Below, one piece after another: positions 36,459 to 45,800 of a DNA stretch of 64,000 nucleotides; position 1 is the first letter of the stretch, and every line of letters starts with the position of its first letter. Made by a program: the position numbers and the translations under genes. Where the stretch lies: contig JYFJ02000840.1 in assembly GCA_000934665.2 (NCBI GenBank), forward strand, positions 1-64,000. The letters are read 5' to 3'. The notes under the pieces are model-generated. The model made no database searches. It was given only the letters and a program-made list of their open reading frames with translations, and was not told the origin of the DNA. Source of the stretch: Catajapyx aquilonaris. Taxonomy: Eukaryota.

Positions 36459-37928
36459 GGATTTTTGTCATATAATACCTGATTTTTTTAAGGAGGAAGG
36501 GAAGGCACGTAACTTGGCCAACGTAAAGCTTTATTGCGTGTAACATTGCTAATGACATTGTTCCTACATTACCTTGTTGTAGTATAGGAAATTGTGGGAA
36601 ATGGTTTGGAAAAAGGCGCCAATGGTGAACTTTTACGTGATTTCCAGACGACTGGACTCTTTTTTTAAAATGGTTCCTTCGCCGGGATCTCTTGGTATGG
36701 GTTCCACAGCCCATACCACTAGCCCTGCCCCCTTACAAAAAACTTAGCAATTGGTCCACTTATTGTCCAGGAAGCCGCTTTGGTTCATTTTTGGCAATTT
36801 GTAAGGCTACGTAACTTCCTTGTTTTATGCTAAAAGGTGATTGTAACTTGAGAAACTGTAAACTTGTGCCAGCGTGAGTTACATAAGTTGCATTCCAACT
36901 TCTAAAAGTGCATTTGGTGCGTACATTTTCGGAACGTGACCTTTTAGGGAAGAAATTGATTTGTCACAGTAGAAAGGTCACCACCTTGTCCAATTTACAT
37001 AGGAATGCCTACTGTGACGTCACAACAAGCACCAACATATTCAGCGCTGAAAGTAAATATTACTGCAAGCTAATGCTTTAGATAAGTTAGTGCAGCTAAA
37101 TGCTAGAGTTGTGTGTAGAGATGTTTTATAAGTCTGAAATCTACATTAGAGTATATCTATATGACATGAAATCCAAAATGTATGTCACCGTTCATGTTCT
37201 GTCATATATTGCAGAAACAAGCTAAAGGCCTCGCTGGTGATGACAGGCTGAGGTTATAATCCTATACACTGTACCGTTAGGAAATTTTTGTATTGTTTCT
37301 ACTTAATCGAGACGCACTAGGTTAAGTTTTTCGAAGACCAATCACTATAATCAAAATTAAAAAGTTGGGCCTTTCTGTCTACATAGCGTCTCCTACACGG
37401 GAAAAATATACATTATTCACATTTGTTACATGCTCGTTCCCCTGGTGCTCGATAATTTGACTTCAACATTGTAAAGGGATGGATTTTTGCATCGGGAAAA
37501 ATTCGGTACCGTATACTTCAGATTCTCTTAGGTGAGAGTGGTGCCGATTACCAAATTTAACTGAATTCTTGTCGGATGATAACTTGTGCAATATACCAGT
37601 GAATCCGATCCAAATAAAATGCAGCATCTTTGGTAATGGCCACACTGCAACTCCAAAGTAAAAACGCGCCCCAGACATTTCCCCCCACCCCCCATACTCT
37701 ACACTTGCACCTCAGAGTCAGTTGCTAATCATAATCAAATAAACCAGTGGCATATCCTGCGGGAAATGTGAGTCGACACCACCCTCAACAGTGATCCCCG
37801 AACTGCATCATCCATCCAGGTTAGTTAGATCCACTTGTGGACGTCAGCAAATGAATGCTGAGAGGCAAAAGAGGTCTCCTGAGGCTAGTGGCTTGGAGTA
37901 CTGAGTGTCTTTTGGCCTGCGCAGGTCA

Positions 37929-38064
37929 TCATGTCCAGACCCGAGCAACCCGCAAAAGGAAGATCAACATGGTCACCAGCGCACCTCCGGAGAGTGAGAT
38001 TAGACCCGGTGACCCGTTGCATCCATCTGCGTCGTCACAGCTCTGCAGACAACCACGGACGTAC
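37929..38064 (-). CDS. Ly6/uPAR three-finger (quiver-like) GPI-anchored protein, terminal coding exon 4
   Basis: Phase-2 acceptor ttccag|. Encodes YVRGCLQSCDDADGCN (terminal C..CN of the LU domain), then GSPGLISLSGGALVTMLIFLLRVARVWT*, a GPI-signal-like hydrophobic tail. Confidence 0.9.
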
Positions 38065-39235
38065 CTGGAACCATGTACGCTATATTACAGCCGATACTTT
38101 CTCCAAGATAGGTAGGTGCTATGCCTACATTAGTATAACAAATTATTGCACAAGTTGCTTTTGTCAAGAAAATATATGCAGCTGGTTTATACAAGATGAT
38201 TGAACACAAATGCTTCGGACTGTCATGCGGTTCTGGTGTAGGCTATATTCAATCAGCTGTATAAATCAGTAGGCATATAGTCTACTACTCTATTTGCCAA
38301 GTAATACTTAATACCAGGCAAAAAATTGGCACATTTTCTAATGAGTACTACATGAAACTTTGCTAATGGTAGTTTGCTGTAAGATCAATTTCAAACTGCT
38401 CTACACTCTAACTCGTATCGTCCCGACGAGCCAACTGAGCGTAAGAGCCCAAATGCAAACTTGACAGGAGAGCGAAACGCGTTCATATCGCAGTCACTGA
38501 ATCTTGATATTTCAGACCCACGGGAGCTGCCTGAGTGCCCATTACTTTTTAATGTGCCAGAATTGATGGCAACAAAAAAATTGAGAGGGAAGCAATTAGA
38601 TTTATTACTGGAACATGTCCTTGCTTCGCAGAATCTGATCAAGTGACGTTAATGACATATGTCACATATATGCACCGAATGCGCTAAAAGAAAGCAAAGT
38701 GGCTGCAAGTAGCTCTCCATAAATTGGCCCGTGCGGGACGAACAGTGGTGCAGTAGCAAAGCATAACAAGAGTGTGTCGGTTTCAAAAGTGTTATATCTC
38801 ATACGCTGATGCTTCTTGATGCAAAGCTGCAACGAATCTGCGTGAGAAGCAGTGCTCACACGGCATTACGTGACATACACTGATTTTGAAAAGAGTAGTT
38901 CAAAAAACATGCCCTGCACAAACTCAAATACATTATGCCATACCCTACAGTTAACCCTCAAAGAGGAACTACTCTCTTCATCAGGTGCAGAAAGAGACAG
39001 AAAGTGAGTGTGTCAGCCAAAGGTGTGAAAAGCGTCAGGGGGACGGGGGACAAGGCAGAAAAGAAAGCGCCTCTCCAGCAACATCTTGTGCTTGTCGCTG
39101 GTCATCTTCGGCAGTGAGAATTTCTGGGATCAGGGCCTCCTCCGTCCTCCCCAGCAGACCCAACACACCCCATTCCCTTCCACCCCTCATTTGGTTTTGT
39201 TTGAAAAAAGGTCGGTTCTCCTTGACCCCTGCTAC

Positions 39236-39350
39236 CTGTCATCAAAGTAGAAGCCCCCACAGTGTGACATCCGAATGATCTCGGTGTCGGTGGTAAGGGT
39301 TCCGCTGTCCAAGGCGCAGCCTCGCACCTTCACCGTCTCCCCAGAGTCGC
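39236..39350 (-). CDS. Ly6/uPAR protein, alternative coding exon 3b (downstream copy)
   Basis: Acceptor tttcag|, donor AG|gtagca, 115 nt, phase 1 to 2. Encodes GDSGETVKVRGCALDSGTLTTDTEIIRMSHCGGFYFDDR. Confidence 0.92.
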
Positions 39351-39558
39351 CTGAAATTGGAGGGAGGACCAACGTGCTTCTCACTACCATCTCACCAATC
39401 TCTTTCTCTCTCTCTTGCCCCCGCCCGTGATGGCCTCGGTAGGGGGGAAATATCGTGCCTTTTTTCAATTCAGGCAGAATAATGTGGGCACGTGCATTTG
39501 TGGACTGGGTGTGTGTCAGTGGTAGTAGGCAAGGAGGAAAGACGAGCCGTTCTCTGTC

Positions 39559-39693
39559 ATAATCAAATCTGATCCGGACTATTGCGCAGCCTACTACGCA
39601 TAAAAGTCCACTGCGCAGCCTACTGCGCATAAAGGGTCCACTGCGCATCCAATCTGCACAGAATGAATACGAGTCCAGATCAGTTACGATTAT
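39559..39693. mobile_element. Small MITE-like foldback with internal tandem repeats, between the two alternative exons
   Basis: Imperfect 22-bp inverted ends (ATAATCAAATCTGATCCGGACT / AGTCCAGATCAGTTACGATTAT) enclose about 2.5 copies of a 29-30 bp unit containing TGCGCA palindromes. Confidence 0.5.
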
Positions 39694-39841
39694 TGCCAGA
39701 AACAACGGCCCTTAATAAAACTCAATCGAGTTTTACTAATTAACCCCCAAATCATGTCACGCAGTGGTTCGCTGATTGACGTATATGTGACCTATGGTGG
39801 ATGTGTCGGTTGCGGTCATTCATTCACCCTTGAGACCCTAC

Positions 39842-39956
39842 CTCTCCTCGAAGACGAAGCTGCCGCAGTGGCTCATCCGGACCATCTCCGTGTCCATTGT
39901 GAGGGATCCGCTGTCCAAGGCGCACGCTCGGACAATCATCGTCTCGTACGTGTCCG
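39842..39956 (-). CDS. Ly6/uPAR protein, alternative coding exon 3a (upstream copy; not in the ORF track in this frame)
   Basis: Acceptor cctcttgcag|, donor AG|gtaggg, 115 nt, phase 1 to 2. Encodes ADTYETMIVRACALDSGSLTMDTEMVRMSHCGSFVFEER. Confidence 0.88.
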
Positions 39957-42659
39957 CTGCAAGAGGTATACGTCCGACCCTTTCGGAACATTTTCTCCAA
40001 CCACATGCTAGGACACACTACCCTCTCATACATACATTTCGTCAACCCAAATAATTTTTGCAAAGAGTCAGGAAATTGCAAAAAAAAAAGCCTCAGGAGC
40101 GAGGTGATTAATTTCCGCAACGAAGCATTTTGGGGCAATTTTGGTCTTTTCCGGCCTAAATAGAAGAGGCGAGTGAAGGATGTATGGAATGTAAAATCAC
40201 TCAAGGTTTTTGCAGGGCGAAAACTAAAGGGGGTTAACGGTTTTCAACTGCATGCCGTTTGTTTATTGATCGGTTGGGGCCAACTGTTTATGGCTGTCTC
40301 CCACATTAATTAGCAGCCGAAACGGCTACGGACAGGGGAATTTTGAAAAGGTCATGAAGATGCATGCGCAGTGGTCAGCAGGAGCAGCAGAATATGCTCT
40401 CGGCAGTGCCTGCTCACTCAACTTGCTGCATACGTCATCTTAATGAGTTGCTACGAAGATCTGTCAGCAGCCAAGACCAGCTAACAAGCGACACGGTAAA
40501 ACTAGTGTTATTAATGCTACCTTACATTCGAGCAAAAAAAGGGCATTATTCTTCATGAGAGTATACCGCAATTTTTGGTTTTTACATATGTTACAAAAAA
40601 AAATGTTGCGCACTTACCGAACCTACATTAGGAGACTTAAATTACCGAAGTTCAAAGAATTTTCTTGCTGTTTTAAAACCGTTTTTCACCAAAAACTAGG
40701 CTAAAGCATCCCTTGTGCAAACTCTTTTTCCCATTAGACTACTAATAACTTGCTACACTTTAGGCCTCGAGGGCGATTATTTTGGCTCAAAATATGCGCG
40801 CAGTTTAGCTAACTATAAAAAGTGGTTTGGAATCATTTCCTTTGCACAACTGCCTACTTTTCTACTGTAAGTAGAGCATGGTATATTTCCCGACCTCCAG
40901 AGATTAATATTAATTGGCCGTTCAAATGAGCTCCACTTAATCATGCTGGGACAAAAGCCCATGCACAATGGATGCTCACGTCTCACTTCACAGTTTTATG
41001 ATAATAGACTATTTGTAATTCTTTTGAAAATGTTAAAATCCTACATTTGCCATTAGTGCTTGAGTACTTCGCTGAAAAAGCCTATTTTACACCCCATGAG
41101 CCTCAACTTCAGCCTATACAGGGTTAAAACTTAAAAGAGATAGCCTGACTTATCGTCAAATATTAGTCTTCACTGACAGTGCCGATTTAAAATTAATGCA
41201 GCTGCAATTATCCAAATAGGGTGTTTACGTACCGGTACTTCTGTCGCAATTTTTGTAAGCGCATTCTACGCTAACATACAAAAATGCTGCCGTCCATATG
41301 TATTGAAACTTTTTTGTATTCCTGAGGTGTAGAACATGTCAGGTTTCTGACAAAGGAACGGAAACACCCACATTCGGACCAGAGAAACATGAGTTCAGCT
41401 AGTTAATTTGAGTCCCAAATAGCGACTCATACCAGGCCAAGTAATTTCTTACCACATCAAAGTCTTGCTGTTTAGAAACCAAAATGGTTAAGCTCGGTTG
41501 AAGCTCTAGAAACACAGACCTCTCAGTAGTTGTCACACGCAAGACGGTGAACTTCGCAAATGGCGAGCCACAAGATTAATTCAAATTTGCGGCCAGAATC
41601 ACACACTCGGAATTTGCTCCAGATCCCAAACCCACGACGTCAGCACACAGTCTTCATGAGAATCACCTCCTTATTCCCTTGAATACGATGCCCTTAAAAA
41701 GGGTCTGTCTGCCATAAAAGGCTTGGAAGGTACGGTATTCAACATGTGTGCTGCCGCCGAAAGTTCGCAAAGGGGACACTTGAGGGCAGACATTTCGGGG
41801 TCTTTTAGATTCTGAAGGCAATCGAGAAGAAAGAAGCGGCGGGAAAAGCCTCGAATGAACGTTCCGGACATACCTCAGGCCAAAGGGAACTCCATTCCCA
41901 CGATGCAATTTGGCCTTCCTAAATCATAATGGTGTGCCCGGGAGAGAGGACTATACATAAATATAGACACAGCGATGTGAGTTGGTAAGGAAGGAAGGAA
42001 AGCAGGGTGAGGGCCTGCTATTATGGCCTCGCAAGAGCGGCTTCGGACACTGGAAGAATGTCCTAATAACAAAGTTGAAGCAGCTATCTGGACTTTGCCC
42101 TGGGCCTATCTAAAGCTAGGTGCGAAAATAGTTTGGTGCCATTCGGGGCATTGAAGGCGAGAGGAACTTCCGACAAACCCGCATAGTTTCCGACTTGTGC
42201 AAATGTCAGACACCACACTTGAAACTGACCTACTTACAGTGTAAACGCTCATAATATTGTTTGATTGATTTTCAGGAGGGCGACAAAGTGTTAGGTCTCC
42301 AAAATGGCTGTAAAGTGGGACGGATTAGATGAAAAGTAGCCCAGGACGGAAACTCGGCCAGTCATTCATTCTCAGACCGTCATCCCGGGAAAAAAAAGTA
42401 ATGCGGGTACTTTCCTGAACCAGAAGGTACAGGGCGAACCAGAATCTGAGATGGATAAAGTCTAGGTCGCTGCTTAAAGCCAATGGACAGACAGGCCATC
42501 CTTCTTCATCACCACCCGATTATCGTACCCGTCTATCTTATAGCCCTGTCCTCCACTGGGATTTGGAGGATGATAGTCTGTAGTCACGTAGTACATTCCA
42601 CTTAAACTGTTAGACCGAGTTAACGAATATGGTAAGTTTTCTCCAGTGGATTGTCTTAC

Positions 42660-42839
42660 CATAGACTCCAGCCAGTTTGATGCAGGCCGTGGCTGGAAAG
42701 AGTCCATTACGACCCTTCCGGCCACCCATGCATGGCGACTCCAAAATGGTCGCAGAGTAGTTGTTGTGAAAAGGATCTTCGCAAGCAGGATTGTCTCCAT
42801 TGATAGACACACACTTGAAGCAGTCGATAAATCCACTGC
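42660..42839 (-). CDS. Ly6/uPAR protein, coding exon 2
   Basis: Acceptor ctctttccag|, donor G|gtaaga, 180 nt, phase 1-1. Encodes SGFIDCFKCVSINGDNPACEDPFHNNYSATILESPCMGGRKGRNGLFPATACIKLAGVY (CxxC start of the LU domain). The spliced 172-aa product has 10 LU-domain cysteines. Confidence 0.92.
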
Positions 42840-45800
42840 CTGGAAAGAGTCAAGAGTACATGAAACGCCCATTTTCTTCCCTCTCCATGTTATTCCAAGA
42901 TTTTTGCGGGCCCAGAGCGGACCATCGGCGACACACTTTCGCCATTTGTGTACATGCAGGAGAAAAAACTGCTTAATCTTGCGAATCAACAGGTTTCGTC
43001 CCCATCGATTGGGCCTTGAAAGCTGCACGGCAGTCAAGTTTTGTGCCAAGCTAGTCTACAAGAAAAATCTCGACCTAGTTTGGCACGCCCCTCCAGTGCA
43101 AGCCAGGCTTCTTTCAAGCACTCGTAAAACCCAAGTTTGGATGCGTGTTTCCTCAAGACGGAAACTTTTGGACATCCGTAATAGCCAAACTAGTCTCTCA
43201 ATCTAGTCTCCAAAGTGAATTTACAAACGGCCAGCACTAGACGAAAGGAGGTGTCTGACAAGCAGCTGCCTTGCCAGAAATATTACGAATTTCAAAGGTG
43301 TATGTGCTGGGTTACCATTTTACGAGCAATTGAGGCAACCTTGGAGTCAAATATTCCCATGCTCCTCTCATTAACTCCACTTAATGGCTTTTGGAGATGG
43401 ACTGTCGTACGAGTGCATCCGACGTGAATGGTGTCCTCTAATGAGCTTATTCTGTTGACTGCGCACTAAAACTCTCGCTGGGACTGACGAAGAGGATCCC
43501 CGCCTTGAAACATGAACCACATTTAGGCCACATTCATTTTGGGCTGCCCGGGCCTATCTGTGGATAAGTCGGAGCCTGTTAGCATGCCCGTCACCTCGAT
43601 CACTCACCCAACTATGGAGTCAACGACGTATCGTTTTTCCCCGGCTGAACGAGCCGGAGAGTGACATGAGGCCAATGTTACTGTTTTTTTTATATAAAAA
43701 AAATAGTGCACATGCTTTTTTTCACGCCGGTATTTCACCAAATGGACATTTTTTGCTGGTATCGGAATCTCCACTGACGTCATCAGGGATTTCATCCAAT
43801 CTAGCTAAAAGCTGGAGGTGAGGTAGTGCGCGGACAATCCCAGAGGGCGGTTTATATGACAGTGTGTCAGGAACTTGATCTCCTGGTTTTATCCAAAAAA
43901 TGGATGAAGACGGTCTCTGGAAATCCTGGGGCATATTGTTCATGAACTGAAACTTTCAAATGATTTTATCACGGAATTTAGTCGCCCCCTTTTTAATTAC
44001 AAAAGTCCGGTTAGATATGAAAACAGGGTTCCAGAGTTATCTCTGGTATACAATGAAATGTGGTGTAACCCGTGAGGATGTCAGCTGTCGATTCCGGTGT
44101 GCAGTGTGGAATGGGCCGAAGTACTCATGTGTGGGCAAAAAATGGCCCGATTATTCTGTCGTGCTTGTCGAGCAAAAATTTTGGTTCTGGTTTTTAAAAA
44201 CACATTGACATAACTTGTAGACTATAGGTGATGTTATGTATTAGTATATGTTATAGTCAGTACAAACTGCCAATTTTTGAAAGCTAACCCTCTATAACAA
44301 GTTAAGCTTTTTGTTTTTGATATTTATGCGGCATTTATTTATTGTGAGGCTGCACAATATTTCCATAAATGTATCTATACTGCAGAACTTCCTTTCACTG
44401 TTTGGAAATTTGCCGCCGAGTGCACCATTTGTGCGGGACTGATTGTATATTATTCCATATTTACGAAGACAACGTATTACAATTACGTTCATTACGTGTA
44501 ATCCATCAATACTGTAGTGTACCTATTTAGATGAACATAATTGAACGAAAACCCATACATTAACAAACCTAGCCTGGTTTGTATGCGAGTATGTCACGCA
44601 TATAGATGACTTGCTATTGTAGCACTAAAAGAATATTTTAATGTCAAAAACAGTCAAAATGACACAACTTTTCTACACAACCTTGCAGCAGTTCTTGACA
44701 GCCATCATGACAAAAACCGACATGCAGAGGCAGGACTTTTTCTACAAGCCACATGAAGGTCCCTGTGGCAACAATATGACCACTGACCAGTCCTGTGGAG
44801 AGACGTGCAGTTGCGTGGGAGGCACATCACTGAAACGGGCAGCAGTAATGGTCAGCTATACTGTGTTTTTAACCTTTCTTCATGGGTTAAATTATTATCT
44901 TCAAAATTAATGACGCTAGAGGTTCCACTATTTGAAGCCTCTGAGATCACAAAAGGCGATTATGAAAAAAAGGGGGGCGAGAAAGCTTTTGGTAAAGTCA
45001 ATCCTGACAATTCAAAAAAAAATGCAATTTTCAGAGCCCATTTTTAAGCTTATGGAAGCAACTTTTGCTGTAACTTCGGGTCTTTTTGGGCGTCTAAAGA
45101 TTGAGAAAATGTGATCCCGTGTCAAACTCATTTCTTTTGGAAAATTGGATTTGTTGGCTGGCAGTTACAAGCAGTAATTTATATGGTGTCTATTTTTACT
45201 GCAGTAGTAGCGTTGATATCTGCAAGTTTGCGTCAAGTTCCAATATTATTATGTGTCTGTCTCATAATTTGTCGCAAAAATAAGTGTAAATACTATAAAA
45301 GTTATACTTTTTAAGTTTAACTATTTATTGATCTACAGAAAATTTAACTCAACAGGGACTGCTCCGTTAAGCCCTTCAATCGAACATCGCACCATTTAAT
45401 AAAGCGCTACCATCCTGTCGTCAAAAGCAAAGGCAGTACGAAACAGATAGATAGTGAAAGTTGGAAAAGGTCAAAGCTGCCCAGTGCAACAGCACTTCCT
45501 CGGCGCGATAGCTTTCACACGTGCGAATATCTACTCGCATTTAGCGTTAGGGTCAATTTCCTCCACCTTTTTTGCCCATCTCTTTTTTTTCTCTTTTCAC
45601 CCCCTCTAACATTATGCTAGAGCTAGTAAAACATCACATCAGGGGCAGTTACTCGCTCGCAAGTGATTCATTATTCAAGTACAGTACAGCGTGAGTAAGG
45701 CCGTCTACAGTTAATGGCTGTCCTTTCATCTCGCCATGACTCCAATGCAATGTATCCTCCCAATTGCCCATAGCTTTAGGGAGTTGGGAAGGATATAGTG

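What the first reader, a model, noticed from the sequence alone, without database searches (positions are those of the whole stretch)
39134..40046. Candidate competing bidirectional RNA pairings that choose between the two Ly6 exons
Seen: the intron between the exon copies has a segment (about 39445-39548) collinearly complementary to the intron downstream of exon 3b (about 39134-39221). The matches are an 11-bp helix (39458-39468 / 39201-39211), an 8-bp helix (39507-39514 / 39163-39170) and a ~19-nt helix (39530-39548 / 39134-39153), several of whose DNA mismatches become G-U pairs only on the transcribed minus strand. The same core (39507-39517, RNA GACACACACCC) can instead pair with the intron upstream of exon 3a (40012-40023, RNA GGGUAGUGUGUC; 11 bp, one bulge). 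A second imperfect helix (about 39775-39807 / 40012-40046) also brackets exon 3a. Established: competing docking/selector duplexes control mutually exclusive splicing in arthropod genes such as Dscam1 and 14-3-3. Inference: one shared selector loops out either exon 3a or exon 3b. The helices are short and partly low-complexity, so chance is not excluded.
Basis: partly seen in the sequence, partly recalled or inferred. Interest (0 to 1): 0.75.

Follow-up and report, generated by a model that had tools for sequence, protein, structure and literature searches.

The report
Intron pairings around twin Ly6 exons
Two alternative copies of one exon in an arthropod Ly6 gene are flanked by intron segments that could pair in the RNA and hide one copy; this is a known kind of splicing switch, but here only one of the two proposed pairings stands out from chance.

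Summary
They lie in a minus-strand Ly6/quiver-type gene with two homologous 115-nt exons, 3a at 39842-39956 and 3b at 39236-39350.

The pairing that brackets exon 3b is more than chance when the segments are fixed. Arm A (39445-39548) and arm A' (39134-39221) give 67 bp and -69.8 kcal/mol. None of 2x500 dinucleotide shuffles reaches this, and only 2 of 2675 natural windows do. Of nine segment pairs tested, A-A' is the only one that beats composition. Tests that allow for the search are only moderate, at about 2.5-15%. The pairing shows no strand asymmetry.

The proposed competitor upstream of exon 3a (40012-40023) is not clearly above chance. It is matched by 18 of 500 shuffles and 186 of 2675 natural windows, and ranks 83-87 of 3082 window pairs. 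Whole-region folds change with the chosen boundaries.

A spliced contig joins exon 2 to exon 3a, and no contig covers 3b. No orthologous introns could be obtained, so conservation is untested.

Verdict: this is a candidate srp-like RNA pairing system. One arm is credible; the shared-selector switch is unproven.

The parts
42660..42839 (-). Exon 2 of the Ly6/quiver-type gene (start of the three-finger domain, begins ...IDCFKCVS...)
   Evidence: AG acceptor and GT donor read. ORF. Weak Pfam QVR match (E 0.023, below cut-off). A spliced contig of run X5 covers 42660-42841.
39994..40050 (-). Upstream-intron segment U. It contains the proposed selector 40012-40023, which lies 56-67 nt before exon 3a.
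   Evidence: 11 bp plus one bulge with the core, -16.2. Extended pairing with 39484-39537 gives 35 bp, -42.0. This is not clearly above chance: 18 of 500 shuffles, 186 of 2675 natural windows, rank 83-87 of 3082 window pairs.
39842..39956 (-). Alternative exon 3a (115 nt)
   Evidence: Splice sites read, peptide. The exon 2 to 3a junction (skip of 39957-42659; CT..AC on the + strand, i.e. GT..AG on the gene's strand) is present in a contig of run X5.
39775..39807 (-). Mid-intron site X, 35-67 nt after exon 3a.
   Evidence: -23.8. With slightly wider segments -28.3, z about -2.1 (9 of 300 and 8 of 300 shuffles), 17 of 5123 natural windows.
39544..39711 (-). Very stable 168-nt hairpin in the middle of the mid intron, built around tandem palindromic repeats. 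Its base overlaps the first 5 nt of arm A.
   Evidence: The folded stretch 39540-39715 gives -79.1 kcal/mol, z -6.88, and 0 of 200 shuffles fold as well. The same stems appear in the 1121-nt fold. No Rfam family matches.
39445..39548 (-). Arm A: C/U-rich mid-intron segment containing the core GACACACACCC (39507-39517), the proposed docking site
   Evidence: Pairs collinearly with arm A': 67 bp, -69.8. Single copy in the window.
39375..39448 (-). Segment B: purine-rich stretch just before the exon 3b acceptor region. It is complementary to 38937-39034.
   Evidence: -65.4, 59 bp, the best pair on the 100-nt grid. A slightly different cut of the same tracts (39351-39444 x 38990-39080) is at composition level (z +0.65). 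It crosses A-A', so both cannot form as nested stems.
39236..39350 (-). Alternative exon 3b (115 nt). This is the copy most like the single exon of other arthropods.
   Evidence: Splice sites read, peptide. 79-89% identity to most of the 120 listed hits. No transcript contig covers it.
39134..39221 (-). Arm A': G-rich start of the downstream intron, beginning 14 nt after the exon 3b donor. It contains a canonical G-quadruplex motif at 39159-39186.
   Evidence: Partner of arm A. G4 motif and 10 GGG in the first 120 nt, against 1.6 on average. It also has a local partner at 39019-39053, -38.7.
38937..39034 (-). Pyrimidine-rich downstream-intron segment, partner of segment B
37929..38064 (-). Coding part of exon 4 (end of the Ly6 domain, GPI-signal-like tail, stop codon)
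   Evidence: Acceptor read, ORF. A contig of run X5 covers 36516-38161.

Best explanation
Exon 3b is bracketed by an imperfect ~100-nt inverted repeat in its two introns: arm A (39445-39548) and arm A' (39134-39221).

Inferred mechanism:
- In the pre-mRNA the arms form an interrupted 67-bp stem. It encloses exon 3b and both its splice sites in a ~223-nt loop, and the stem starts 14 nt after the donor.
- This lowers use of exon 3b and so favours exon 3a. It works like the downstream pairing of the Drosophila srp exon 4 cluster, which loops out the distal exon.
- The G-rich arm also carries G-runs and a G-quadruplex motif, so pairing may in addition mask a donor-proximal enhancer.

Shown directly: mutual exclusion is backed by the reading frame, because both exons are 115 nt and taking both or neither shifts the frame.

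Possible but not established: the core could instead pair with 40012-40023 upstream of exon 3a, which would make this a two-way switch.

Also shown: the sequences, their complementarity, its excess over shuffled and most natural controls, and the exon 2 to 3a junction. Inferred: that the stem forms in vivo and affects exon choice.
For: - A x A' gives -69.8 kcal/mol and 67 bp. 0 of 500 and 0 of 500 dinucleotide shuffles reach this (z -4.6 and -4.5), and 2 of 2675 natural 88-nt windows do.
- DNA-level alignment of A with the reverse complement of A' gives 67 matches, 17 mismatches and 24 gap columns; 0 of 1000 shuffles reach its score.
- Of 9 pairs among the five compositionally biased segments, only A-A' exceeds composition; 7 have |z| below 1, and the other two are U-A at -1.7 and A-B' at +1.73.
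- In an unbiased 40-nt scan, the best of 1311 mid x downstream window pairs is this region (-37.0).
- Only 0.6%, 1.2% and 2.4% of natural 120-, 200- and 300-nt blocks pair this well with any mid-intron window.
- The outer part of the stem forms in the MFE and centroid of the local 431-nt fold.
- The arms are single-copy in the window, and at 90% likeness only two short pieces (18-21 nt) of one other contig were laid on them.
- The exon pair is old. First copies carry DTE[L/M]x and second copies DTEII in 5 of 5 two-copy genes.
- The kind of mechanism is established for srp and Dscam (PMC4691838, abstract and section 5 read).
Against: - The segments were chosen after looking. Tests that allow for the search are modest:
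  - 9 of 102 natural 1171-nt blocks match the best 40-nt duplex.
  - 9 of 143 shuffles of the proximal 300 nt do.
  - Whole-intron local alignment is matched by 12-29 of 195 natural blocks and 11-50 of 300 shuffles.
  - 8 of 324 natural pseudo-exon loci reach -69.8 and 14 of 324 reach the grid best of -65.4.
- There is no strand asymmetry (-72.6 on the opposite strand; G-U-type mismatches 3 against 3), so nothing points specifically to selection on the RNA.
- The longest helix is A6/U6-rich, and the core is a CA/UG repeat that is about four times over-represented in the window.
- Arm A' has an equally good local partner (-38.7), and segment B has a crossing partner.
- In 1.1-1.4 kb folds the stem forms or not depending on the boundaries.
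- The local 431-nt fold is no more stable than shuffles (z -0.19).
- There is no conservation data and no transcript evidence for regulated 3b use.
Confidence: 0.42

Rival explanations
1. Chance. The introns carry pyrimidine-rich, purine/G-rich, CA/UG-repeat and A6/U6 tracts. Among the many possible segment pairs, some will look collinearly complementary. On this reading none of the helices has a function.
For: - Search-corrected tests give about 2.5-15%.
- The repeat finder lists 17 short inverted pairs in 2.4 kb.
- 40-nt duplexes of -30 or better with the mid intron occur in 262 of 5894 background windows.
- The upstream pairing is ordinary.
- The 8-mer of the core occurs 8 times in the window's two strands, against about 2 expected.
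- There is no strand asymmetry.
- Global folds are unstable to the choice of boundaries.
Against: - With fixed segments, A-A' is far outside shuffles (0 of 1000 in all) and natural windows (2 of 2675).
- The other eight pairs of the same biased tracts do not exceed composition.
- The arms sit directly around the alternative exon.
Confidence: 0.38
2. One shared docking core (39507-39517) pairs either with 40012-40023, looping out exon 3a, or with 39160-39172, looping out exon 3b. Exactly one exon is hidden at a time.
For: - Both pairings exist and overlap on the same 11 nt.
- Both partner sites lie 56-76 nt from their exons.
- For the 26-nt core segment, only 30 of 9072 natural windows (upstream-strength pairing) and 6 of 9072 (downstream-strength pairing) do as well.
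- For the core's 40-nt window, 4 of 143 and 1 of 143 shuffles do as well.
- In one 1121-nt fold the core-upstream helix has probability about 1, and in a 961-nt context the two states differ by under 1 kcal/mol.
- Competition for a shared site is proven in human ATE1 (PMC7797038, passages read).
Against: - The upstream pairing is matched by 18 of 500 shuffles and 186 of 2675 natural windows.
- It ranks 83-87 of 3082 upstream x mid window pairs.
- The real proximal upstream 300 nt pairs worse than 134 of 143 of its own shuffles.
- Joint tests are not significant.
- The upstream segment has a second possible partner at 39775-39807, which would leave the core free.
- Forcing mid-downstream pairing costs 17-21 kcal/mol in two of three contexts.
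Confidence: 0.14
3. The elements act as protein or G-quadruplex signals, not by pairing with each other. The G-runs and G4 motif after the exon 3b donor would be an intronic enhancer or silencer. The C/U-rich and CA-repeat tract would be a binding platform for pyrimidine-tract or CA-repeat binding proteins. The complementarity would be a by-product of opposite compositions.
For: - A canonical G4 motif lies at 39159-39186; there are only 13 such motifs in 128 kb of both strands.
- There are 10 GGG in the first 120 nt after exon 3b and 5 after exon 3a, against 1.6 on average and 1 after exon 2.
- That G-runs near donors enhance splicing is recalled textbook knowledge from vertebrates, not from a call.
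Against: - Composition alone does not explain A-A' (dinucleotide shuffles z -4.6; other purine/pyrimidine tract pairs z about 0).
- No arthropod evidence for such factors was examined here.
Confidence: 0.12
4. The flanking inverted repeat promotes back-splicing of exon 3b into a circular RNA.
For: Inverted intronic repeats around an exon are the classic driver of circularisation (recalled). A-A' brackets exon 3b closely.
Against: A 115-nt single-exon circle is very small. No back-splice joint was reported in the laid runs, although those were contigs, which drop rare forms.
Confidence: 0.03

Closest known systems
Bidirectional RNA pairing in the Drosophila serpent (srp) exon 4.1/4.2 cluster (Yue et al. 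2016, PMC4691838; abstract and section 5 read)
   Same: A two-exon mutually exclusive cluster. Intronic elements lie in the upstream, middle and downstream introns. The upstream pairing loops out the first exon and the downstream pairing loops out the second.
   Different: - srp has four separate conserved elements, two of them in the middle intron. Here the two pairings would share one core.
- The srp downstream docking site lies just upstream of the next constitutive exon. Here the downstream arm starts 14 nt after the alternative exon's own donor.
- The srp elements are conserved across Drosophila and validated by compensatory mutations. Here neither test could be done, and the upstream pairing is at chance level.
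Docking-site/selector competition in Dscam1 exon 6, 14-3-3 zeta, Mhc and MRP1 (as summarised in PMC6071210, passages read)
   Same: Arthropod mutually exclusive exons. Competing intronic duplexes allow only one selector to occupy the docking site.
   Different: In those systems the docking site lies in the left or right flanking intron and every selector lies next to a variable exon. Here the putative docking site lies between the two exons and the selectors lie outside them.
Human ATE1 exons 7a/7b, elements R1, R3 and R4 (Kalinina et al., PMC7797038; abstract and passages read)
   Same: A single element in the intron between two mutually exclusive exons (R3) is complementary to two competitors. 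Exon choice follows the difference in pairing energies.
   Different: - R1 and R4 are similar sequences immediately upstream of each exon and overlap the polypyrimidine tracts, so R3-R4 is an intra-intron pairing.
- Here the second partner lies downstream of the second exon, and the two partners share only a short GGGU..GUGU motif.
- ATE1 is a vertebrate gene with experimentally validated elements.
Ly6/uPAR 'quiver/sleepless' family (Pfam PF17064) genes of arthropods
   Same: Exon 2-4 peptides are 79-89% identical over exon 3 to most of the listed arthropod proteins, many of which carry PF17064.
   Different: The exon 3 pair itself is not the subject here. In 34 metagenome-derived loci, no second exon 3 copy was found between exons 2 and 4. 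Two copies are seen in one unnamed ENA protein (P0001) and in amphipod, springtail and crab proteins (P0002-P0004).

Membership tests
RNA-pairing-controlled mutually exclusive exon clusters (docking/selector, bidirectional srp type) | Tandem homologous alternative exons that cannot be spliced together productively | tested here: met
   Exons 3a and 3b are both 115 nt, 65% identical in peptide, in the same phase and have GT-AG sites. 115 is not a multiple of 3, so including both or neither shifts the frame.
RNA-pairing-controlled mutually exclusive exon clusters (docking/selector, bidirectional srp type) | Transcripts contain one or the other exon, never both | tested here: inconclusive
   One spliced contig joins exon 2 to 3a. 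Nothing covers 3b or the exits of either exon. All data are contigs from one small run.
RNA-pairing-controlled mutually exclusive exon clusters (docking/selector, bidirectional srp type) | Intronic complementary elements that bracket an alternative exon and exceed chance | tested here: inconclusive
   A-A' around exon 3b: 0 of 1000 shuffles, 2 of 2675 natural windows, but 2.5-15% after allowing for the search. Around exon 3a: z about -2, and 115 of 324 natural pseudo-loci are as good.
RNA-pairing-controlled mutually exclusive exon clusters (docking/selector, bidirectional srp type) | Competition: one docking sequence with two or more mutually exclusive partners | tested here: inconclusive
   Both partners overlap on 39507-39517. 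The upstream partner is not above chance, and joint tests are not significant.
RNA-pairing-controlled mutually exclusive exon clusters (docking/selector, bidirectional srp type) | Conservation of the elements and compensatory substitutions in related species | not testable with these tools
   No genome is held for the window. No look-alike stretches exist in the scan. None of the 34 metagenome loci has the exon pair. No hit exceeded 89% identity over exon 3b.
RNA-pairing-controlled mutually exclusive exon clusters (docking/selector, bidirectional srp type) | Disruptive and compensatory mutations change and restore exon choice | not testable with these tools
   This needs a bench experiment.
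Ly6/uPAR quiver family (PF17064) | Match to the family profile | tested here: inconclusive
   Exon 2 alone scores E 0.023 and 16.1 bits, against a cut-off of 27.3. Single exons 3a, 3b and 4 give no match. Close homologues (79-89% over exon 3) carry a precomputed PF17064.

The most novel reading that the evidence does not exclude
An ancient pancrustacean Ly6 exon pair is governed by a three-state RNA switch with a single central docking core. The C-rich core pairs either with a UG-rich selector upstream of exon 3a or with a G-quadruplex-capable selector just after the exon 3b donor. The adjacent 168-nt super-stable hairpin acts as an architectural element that brings the partners together. A shared central docking site with outward-facing selectors, combined with a duplex-versus-G4 choice, has not been described in the papers seen here: srp has four separate elements, and in ATE1 both competitors lie upstream of their exons.
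Probability: 0.1. Interest if true: 0.65.

Novelty: new member of a known kind. Interest (0 to 1): 0.36.

Why it matters
If the exon 3b-bracketing stem is real, it would add a small, tractable two-exon case to the few mutually exclusive exon clusters known to be controlled by RNA pairing. It would be outside Drosophila and in a Ly6/quiver-type gene. The exon pair is shared by crustaceans, a springtail and this arthropod (5 of 5 two-copy genes keep the same first-copy and second-copy signature).

The alternative exon encodes the central part of the three-finger domain, so the switch would select between two surface variants of a GPI-anchored regulator. The case would also allow a test of whether such pairings persist over very long times, as Ivanov and Pervouchine propose for exon duplications (PMC6071210, passages read).

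As it stands it is a candidate. The kind of mechanism is known, and the decisive evidence (conservation, mutagenesis) is missing.

Tried and rejected
- RNAduplex on whole introns gave duplexes spanning everything. It is meaningless for long inputs, so I replaced it with windowed scans.
- A Smith-Waterman prefilter with lenient scores ran in the linear regime and was dropped.
- Global MFE and partition folding of 1-1.4 kb gave the core-upstream helix probability about 1 in one context, mid-downstream pairing in another and neither in a third. I do not use this as evidence either way.
- No whole genome is held for the window.
- The scan's notes hold no relatives.
- Sequencing runs: no RNA holder is listed. 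Run X5, of unknown kind and with 0.08 of the words, turned out to hold spliced contigs. No contig lies over exon 3b, over the 3a-4 or 3b-4 junctions, or over a 3a-3b junction. This is not evidence of absence.
- DNA runs X1 and X3 show no variant inside the arms, but only about 1 variant per kb elsewhere, so this is uninformative.
The third returned 34 loci, and none has a second exon 3 copy between exons 2 and 4. L017 has a partial second copy after exon 4, probably a neighbouring paralogue.
- There is no paralogue of the gene, and no further copy of either arm, in the 64-kb window.
- Rfam: 0 matches at E up to 1 in 37800-42900.
- Strand-asymmetry test for RNA-level selection: negative.
- Literature: the search 'mutually exclusive exons' + 'Ly6' + 'arthropod' (listing only) gave no paper on an arthropod Ly6 exon pair. 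The one 'Ly6' hit in PMC6071210 is human LY6G5C.
- The supplements of Yue et al. 2016 were not opened.


Full report
**Setting.** The flagged interval lies in a minus-strand gene. I read its exons from the sequence and ORF list.
- Exon 2: 42660-42839.
- Upstream intron: 2703 nt.
- Exon 3a: 39842-39956.
- Mid intron: 491 nt (39351-39841).
- Exon 3b: 39236-39350.
- Downstream intron: 1171 nt (38065-39235).
- Exon 4: starts at 38064, stop codon at 37929-37931.

All introns are GT-AG. Exons 3a and 3b are both 115 nt and their peptides are 65% identical. Because 115 is not a multiple of three, taking both or neither shifts the frame.

The product is an arthropod Ly6/quiver-type three-finger protein.
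- Exon 2 alone gives a sub-threshold Pfam QVR match (E 0.023).
- The exon 3b peptide finds 288 proteins at E up to 0.001 among 289 candidates. Most of the 120 listed are 79-89% identical, many carry PF17064, and they range from chelicerates to flies.
- One unnamed ENA protein (P0001) and amphipod, springtail and crab proteins (P0002-P0004) contain two tandem copies.
- In all 5 two-copy genes, including the window, the first copy reads DTE[L/M]x and the second DTEII. The pair is therefore probably old.
- No genome is held for the window.

**Transcript evidence.** Five runs hold the stretch and none is on record as RNA. Run X5, from the same coded organism, holds spliced contigs.
- One contig joins exon 3a to exon 2 exactly at the predicted sites. 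It skips 2703 nt, with ends CT..AC on the + strand, i.e. GT..AG on the gene's strand.
- Another covers exon 4 and the 3' UTR, plus 97 nt of the intron before exon 4.
- Nothing covers exon 3b. Contigs show presence, not absence.

| Helix | Description | Energy (kcal/mol) |
|---|---|---|
| 39458-39468 / 39201-39211 | 11 bp perfect, A/U-rich | -10.8 |
| 39507-39514 / 39163-39170 | 8 bp perfect | -12.8 |
| 39530-39548 / 39134-39153 | imperfect | -23.9 |
| core 39507-39517 / 40012-40023 | 11 bp plus a bulged A | -16.2 |
| 39775-39807 / 40012-40046 | imperfect | -23.8 |

The first three are collinear. As whole segments, arm A (39445-39548) and arm A' (39134-39221) form 67 bp in 18 helices, the longest 11, 9 and 8 bp. 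The pairs are 35 G-C, 26 A-U and 6 G-U, and the energy is -69.8 kcal/mol. The stem would enclose exon 3b in a loop of about 223 nt. Its inner end lies 14 nt after the donor and 94 nt before the acceptor.

**Is A-A' more than chance?**

With the segments fixed, clearly yes.
- 0 of 500 shuffles of A' and 0 of 500 shuffles of A reach -69.8 (means -46.5 and -49.8; z -4.6 and -4.5).
- 2 of 2675 natural 88-nt windows from the rest of the 64-kb window, both strands, pair as well with A.
- A DNA alignment of A with the reverse complement of A' has 67 matches, 17 mismatches and 24 gap columns. It beats 1000 of 1000 shuffles.
- As an internal control I tested nine pairs among the five compositionally biased segments. 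Only A-A' exceeds composition (z -4.84). Seven of the other eight have |z| below 1, and the remaining two are U-A at -1.7 and A-B' at +1.73.

The segments were chosen after looking, however, so I ran tests that allow for the search.
- In an exhaustive scan of 40-nt windows, the best of 1311 mid x downstream pairs is indeed this region (-37.0).
- Even so, 9 of 102 natural 1171-nt blocks give the mid intron an equally good partner, and 9 of 143 shuffles of the proximal 300 nt do.
- Restricting to blocks the size of the exon-proximal region gives 0.6% (of 1472 blocks of 120 nt), 1.2% (of 734) and 2.4% (of 452).
- Whole-intron local alignment is matched by 17, 29 and 12 of 195 natural blocks under three scoring schemes.
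- I also used a null of natural 'pseudo-exons': 300-nt flanks around a 115-nt gap, at 324 loci. 14 of these reach the real locus's grid best of -65.4, and 8 reach -69.8.
- The grid best is actually another pair, 39375-39448 x 38937-39034. It crosses A-A' and, cut slightly differently, is at composition level.

My reading is a family-wise probability of a few percent up to about 15%. That is suggestive, not compelling.

**No RNA-specific signature.** The opposite strand pairs at least as well (-72.6). Mismatch columns that would be G-U number 3 on each strand. The complementarity is therefore that of a symmetric inverted repeat.

It is not a repeated element. The arms are single-copy in the window, and at 90% likeness only two pieces of 18-21 nt from one other contig were laid on them.

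**The upstream competitor.** The core-upstream helix extends to 35 bp and -42.0 (39994-40050 x 39484-39537). Several controls do as well.
- 18 of 500 shuffles (z -1.9).
- 186 of 2675 natural windows.
- It ranks 83-87 among 3082 upstream x mid window pairs. The top pairs instead involve the palindromic repeats of the mid intron and 40361-40399.
- The real proximal upstream 300 nt pairs worse with the mid intron than 134 of 143 of its own shuffles.

Taken narrowly, the 26-nt core segment is matched as well by only 30 of 9072 natural windows. That is roughly 3% for the ~120 nt before exon 3a.

Joint tests for one mid-intron site pairing on both sides are not significant.
- By energy: 16-35% of decoy pairs do as well.
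- Normalised per window: 4%, 14% and 30%, with the best window not being the core.

As a whole, exon 3a's flanks are ordinary (115 of 324 pseudo-loci).

**Thermodynamic folds.**
- In a 1121-nt context the core pairs upstream with probability about 1, and A-A' is absent.
- In a 961-nt context part of A-A' forms, and the two forced states differ by under 1 kcal/mol.
- In a 1401-nt context neither forms.
- Locally (431 nt) the outer part of A-A' is in the MFE and centroid, but the fold is no more stable than shuffles (z -0.19).

These folds show that competition is possible in principle and nothing more.

**Other anatomy.**
- Arm A' is G-rich. It holds a canonical G-quadruplex motif at 39159-39186, one of 13 in 128 kb of both strands.
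- There are 10 GGG in the first 120 nt after exon 3b, against a mean of 1.6. Exon 3a is followed by 5 and exon 2 by 1.
- A' also has a local partner at 39019-39053 (-38.7).
- The centre of the mid intron (39544-39711) is an exceptionally stable hairpin. The folded stretch gives -79.1 kcal/mol, z -6.9, and 0 of 200 shuffles fold as well. Its base overlaps the first 5 nt of arm A.
- Rfam has no match anywhere in 37800-42900.

**Conservation.** This is the decisive test, and I could not run it.
- No genome is held.
- The scan holds no look-alikes.
- No hit exceeded 89% identity over exon 3b.
- None of the 34 metagenome loci encoding relatives has a second exon 3 copy between exons 2 and 4.

**Comparison with what is known.** The closest system is the srp exon 4 cluster (PMC4691838, abstract and section 5 read). 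It has four conserved intronic elements. The upstream pairing loops out exon 4.1 and gives 4.2, and the downstream pairing gives 4.1. This was validated by compensatory mutations.

The present case would differ in using one shared core, and in having its downstream arm next to the alternative exon's own donor. Competition for a shared mid-intron element is proven in human ATE1, but there both competitors lie just upstream of the two exons (PMC7797038, passages read). Ivanov and Pervouchine (PMC6071210, passages read) argue that such structures may be general for duplicated exons.

As for membership, the exon architecture is met. Complementarity is inconclusive, and conservation and mutational proof are untestable here.

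**Verdict.**
- The exon 3b-bracketing pairing is a credible regulatory stem. I put it at about 0.4 that it affects exon choice.
- The shared-selector, two-way switch is possible but not above chance on the upstream side (about 0.14).
- Pure coincidence remains nearly as likely as function (about 0.38).

The kind of mechanism is known, so if real this is a new member of a known kind.

Noticed in passing
window 39544-39711 (minus strand): Exceptionally stable 168-nt hairpin in the mid intron. The folded stretch 39540-39715 gives -79.1 kcal/mol, z -6.9, and 0 of 200 shuffles fold as well. It has a 32-bp interrupted outer stem around tandem repeats carrying the palindrome CTGCGCAG. No Rfam match, and not seen elsewhere in the window. 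Its function is unknown: it could be an old foldback insertion or an architectural element.
   Followed up: partly
window 39159-39186 (minus strand): Canonical G-quadruplex motif 50-77 nt after the exon 3b donor. Both alternative exons are followed by GGG-rich intron starts (10 and 5 GGG in 120 nt, against 1.6 on average), while exon 2 is not (1).
   Followed up: partly
An 11-14-nt GC-rich match (CCACUGCGCAUGC type) pairs with two or three of the tandem repeat units of the mid intron (-31 to -35 kcal/mol in 40-nt windows). It would also loop out exon 3a, but this level is typical for natural blocks (19 of 42).
   Followed up: partly
window 40273-40295 versus 38936-38962 (minus strand): An upstream-intron to downstream-intron duplex of -26.2 kcal/mol (11 bp plus 6 bp) would bracket both alternative exons at once. 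It came from the lenient prefilter and its significance was not tested.
   Followed up: no
window 38065-38161 (minus strand): The transcript-like contig of run X5 that covers exon 4 and the 3' UTR runs 97 nt into the intron before exon 4. This could be retained intron, unspliced RNA or an alternative start. The exon 2-3a contig stops 15 nt short of the end of exon 3a.
   Followed up: no
window 39820-39841 and 39205-39235 (minus strand): The first ~20 nt of the introns after exon 3a and exon 3b resemble each other (GTAG..GGTC.CAAGG), and a shared AACCGAC follows. This may be a remnant of the duplication or a shared donor-proximal signal.
   Followed up: no
proteins P0001-P0004; loci L003, L009: The exon 3 pair occurs in an amphipod, a springtail, a crab and one unnamed ENA contig, with a consistent first-copy and second-copy signature. 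In the termite-like metagenome loci, exons 2 and 3 are fused and there is only one copy.
   Followed up: partly
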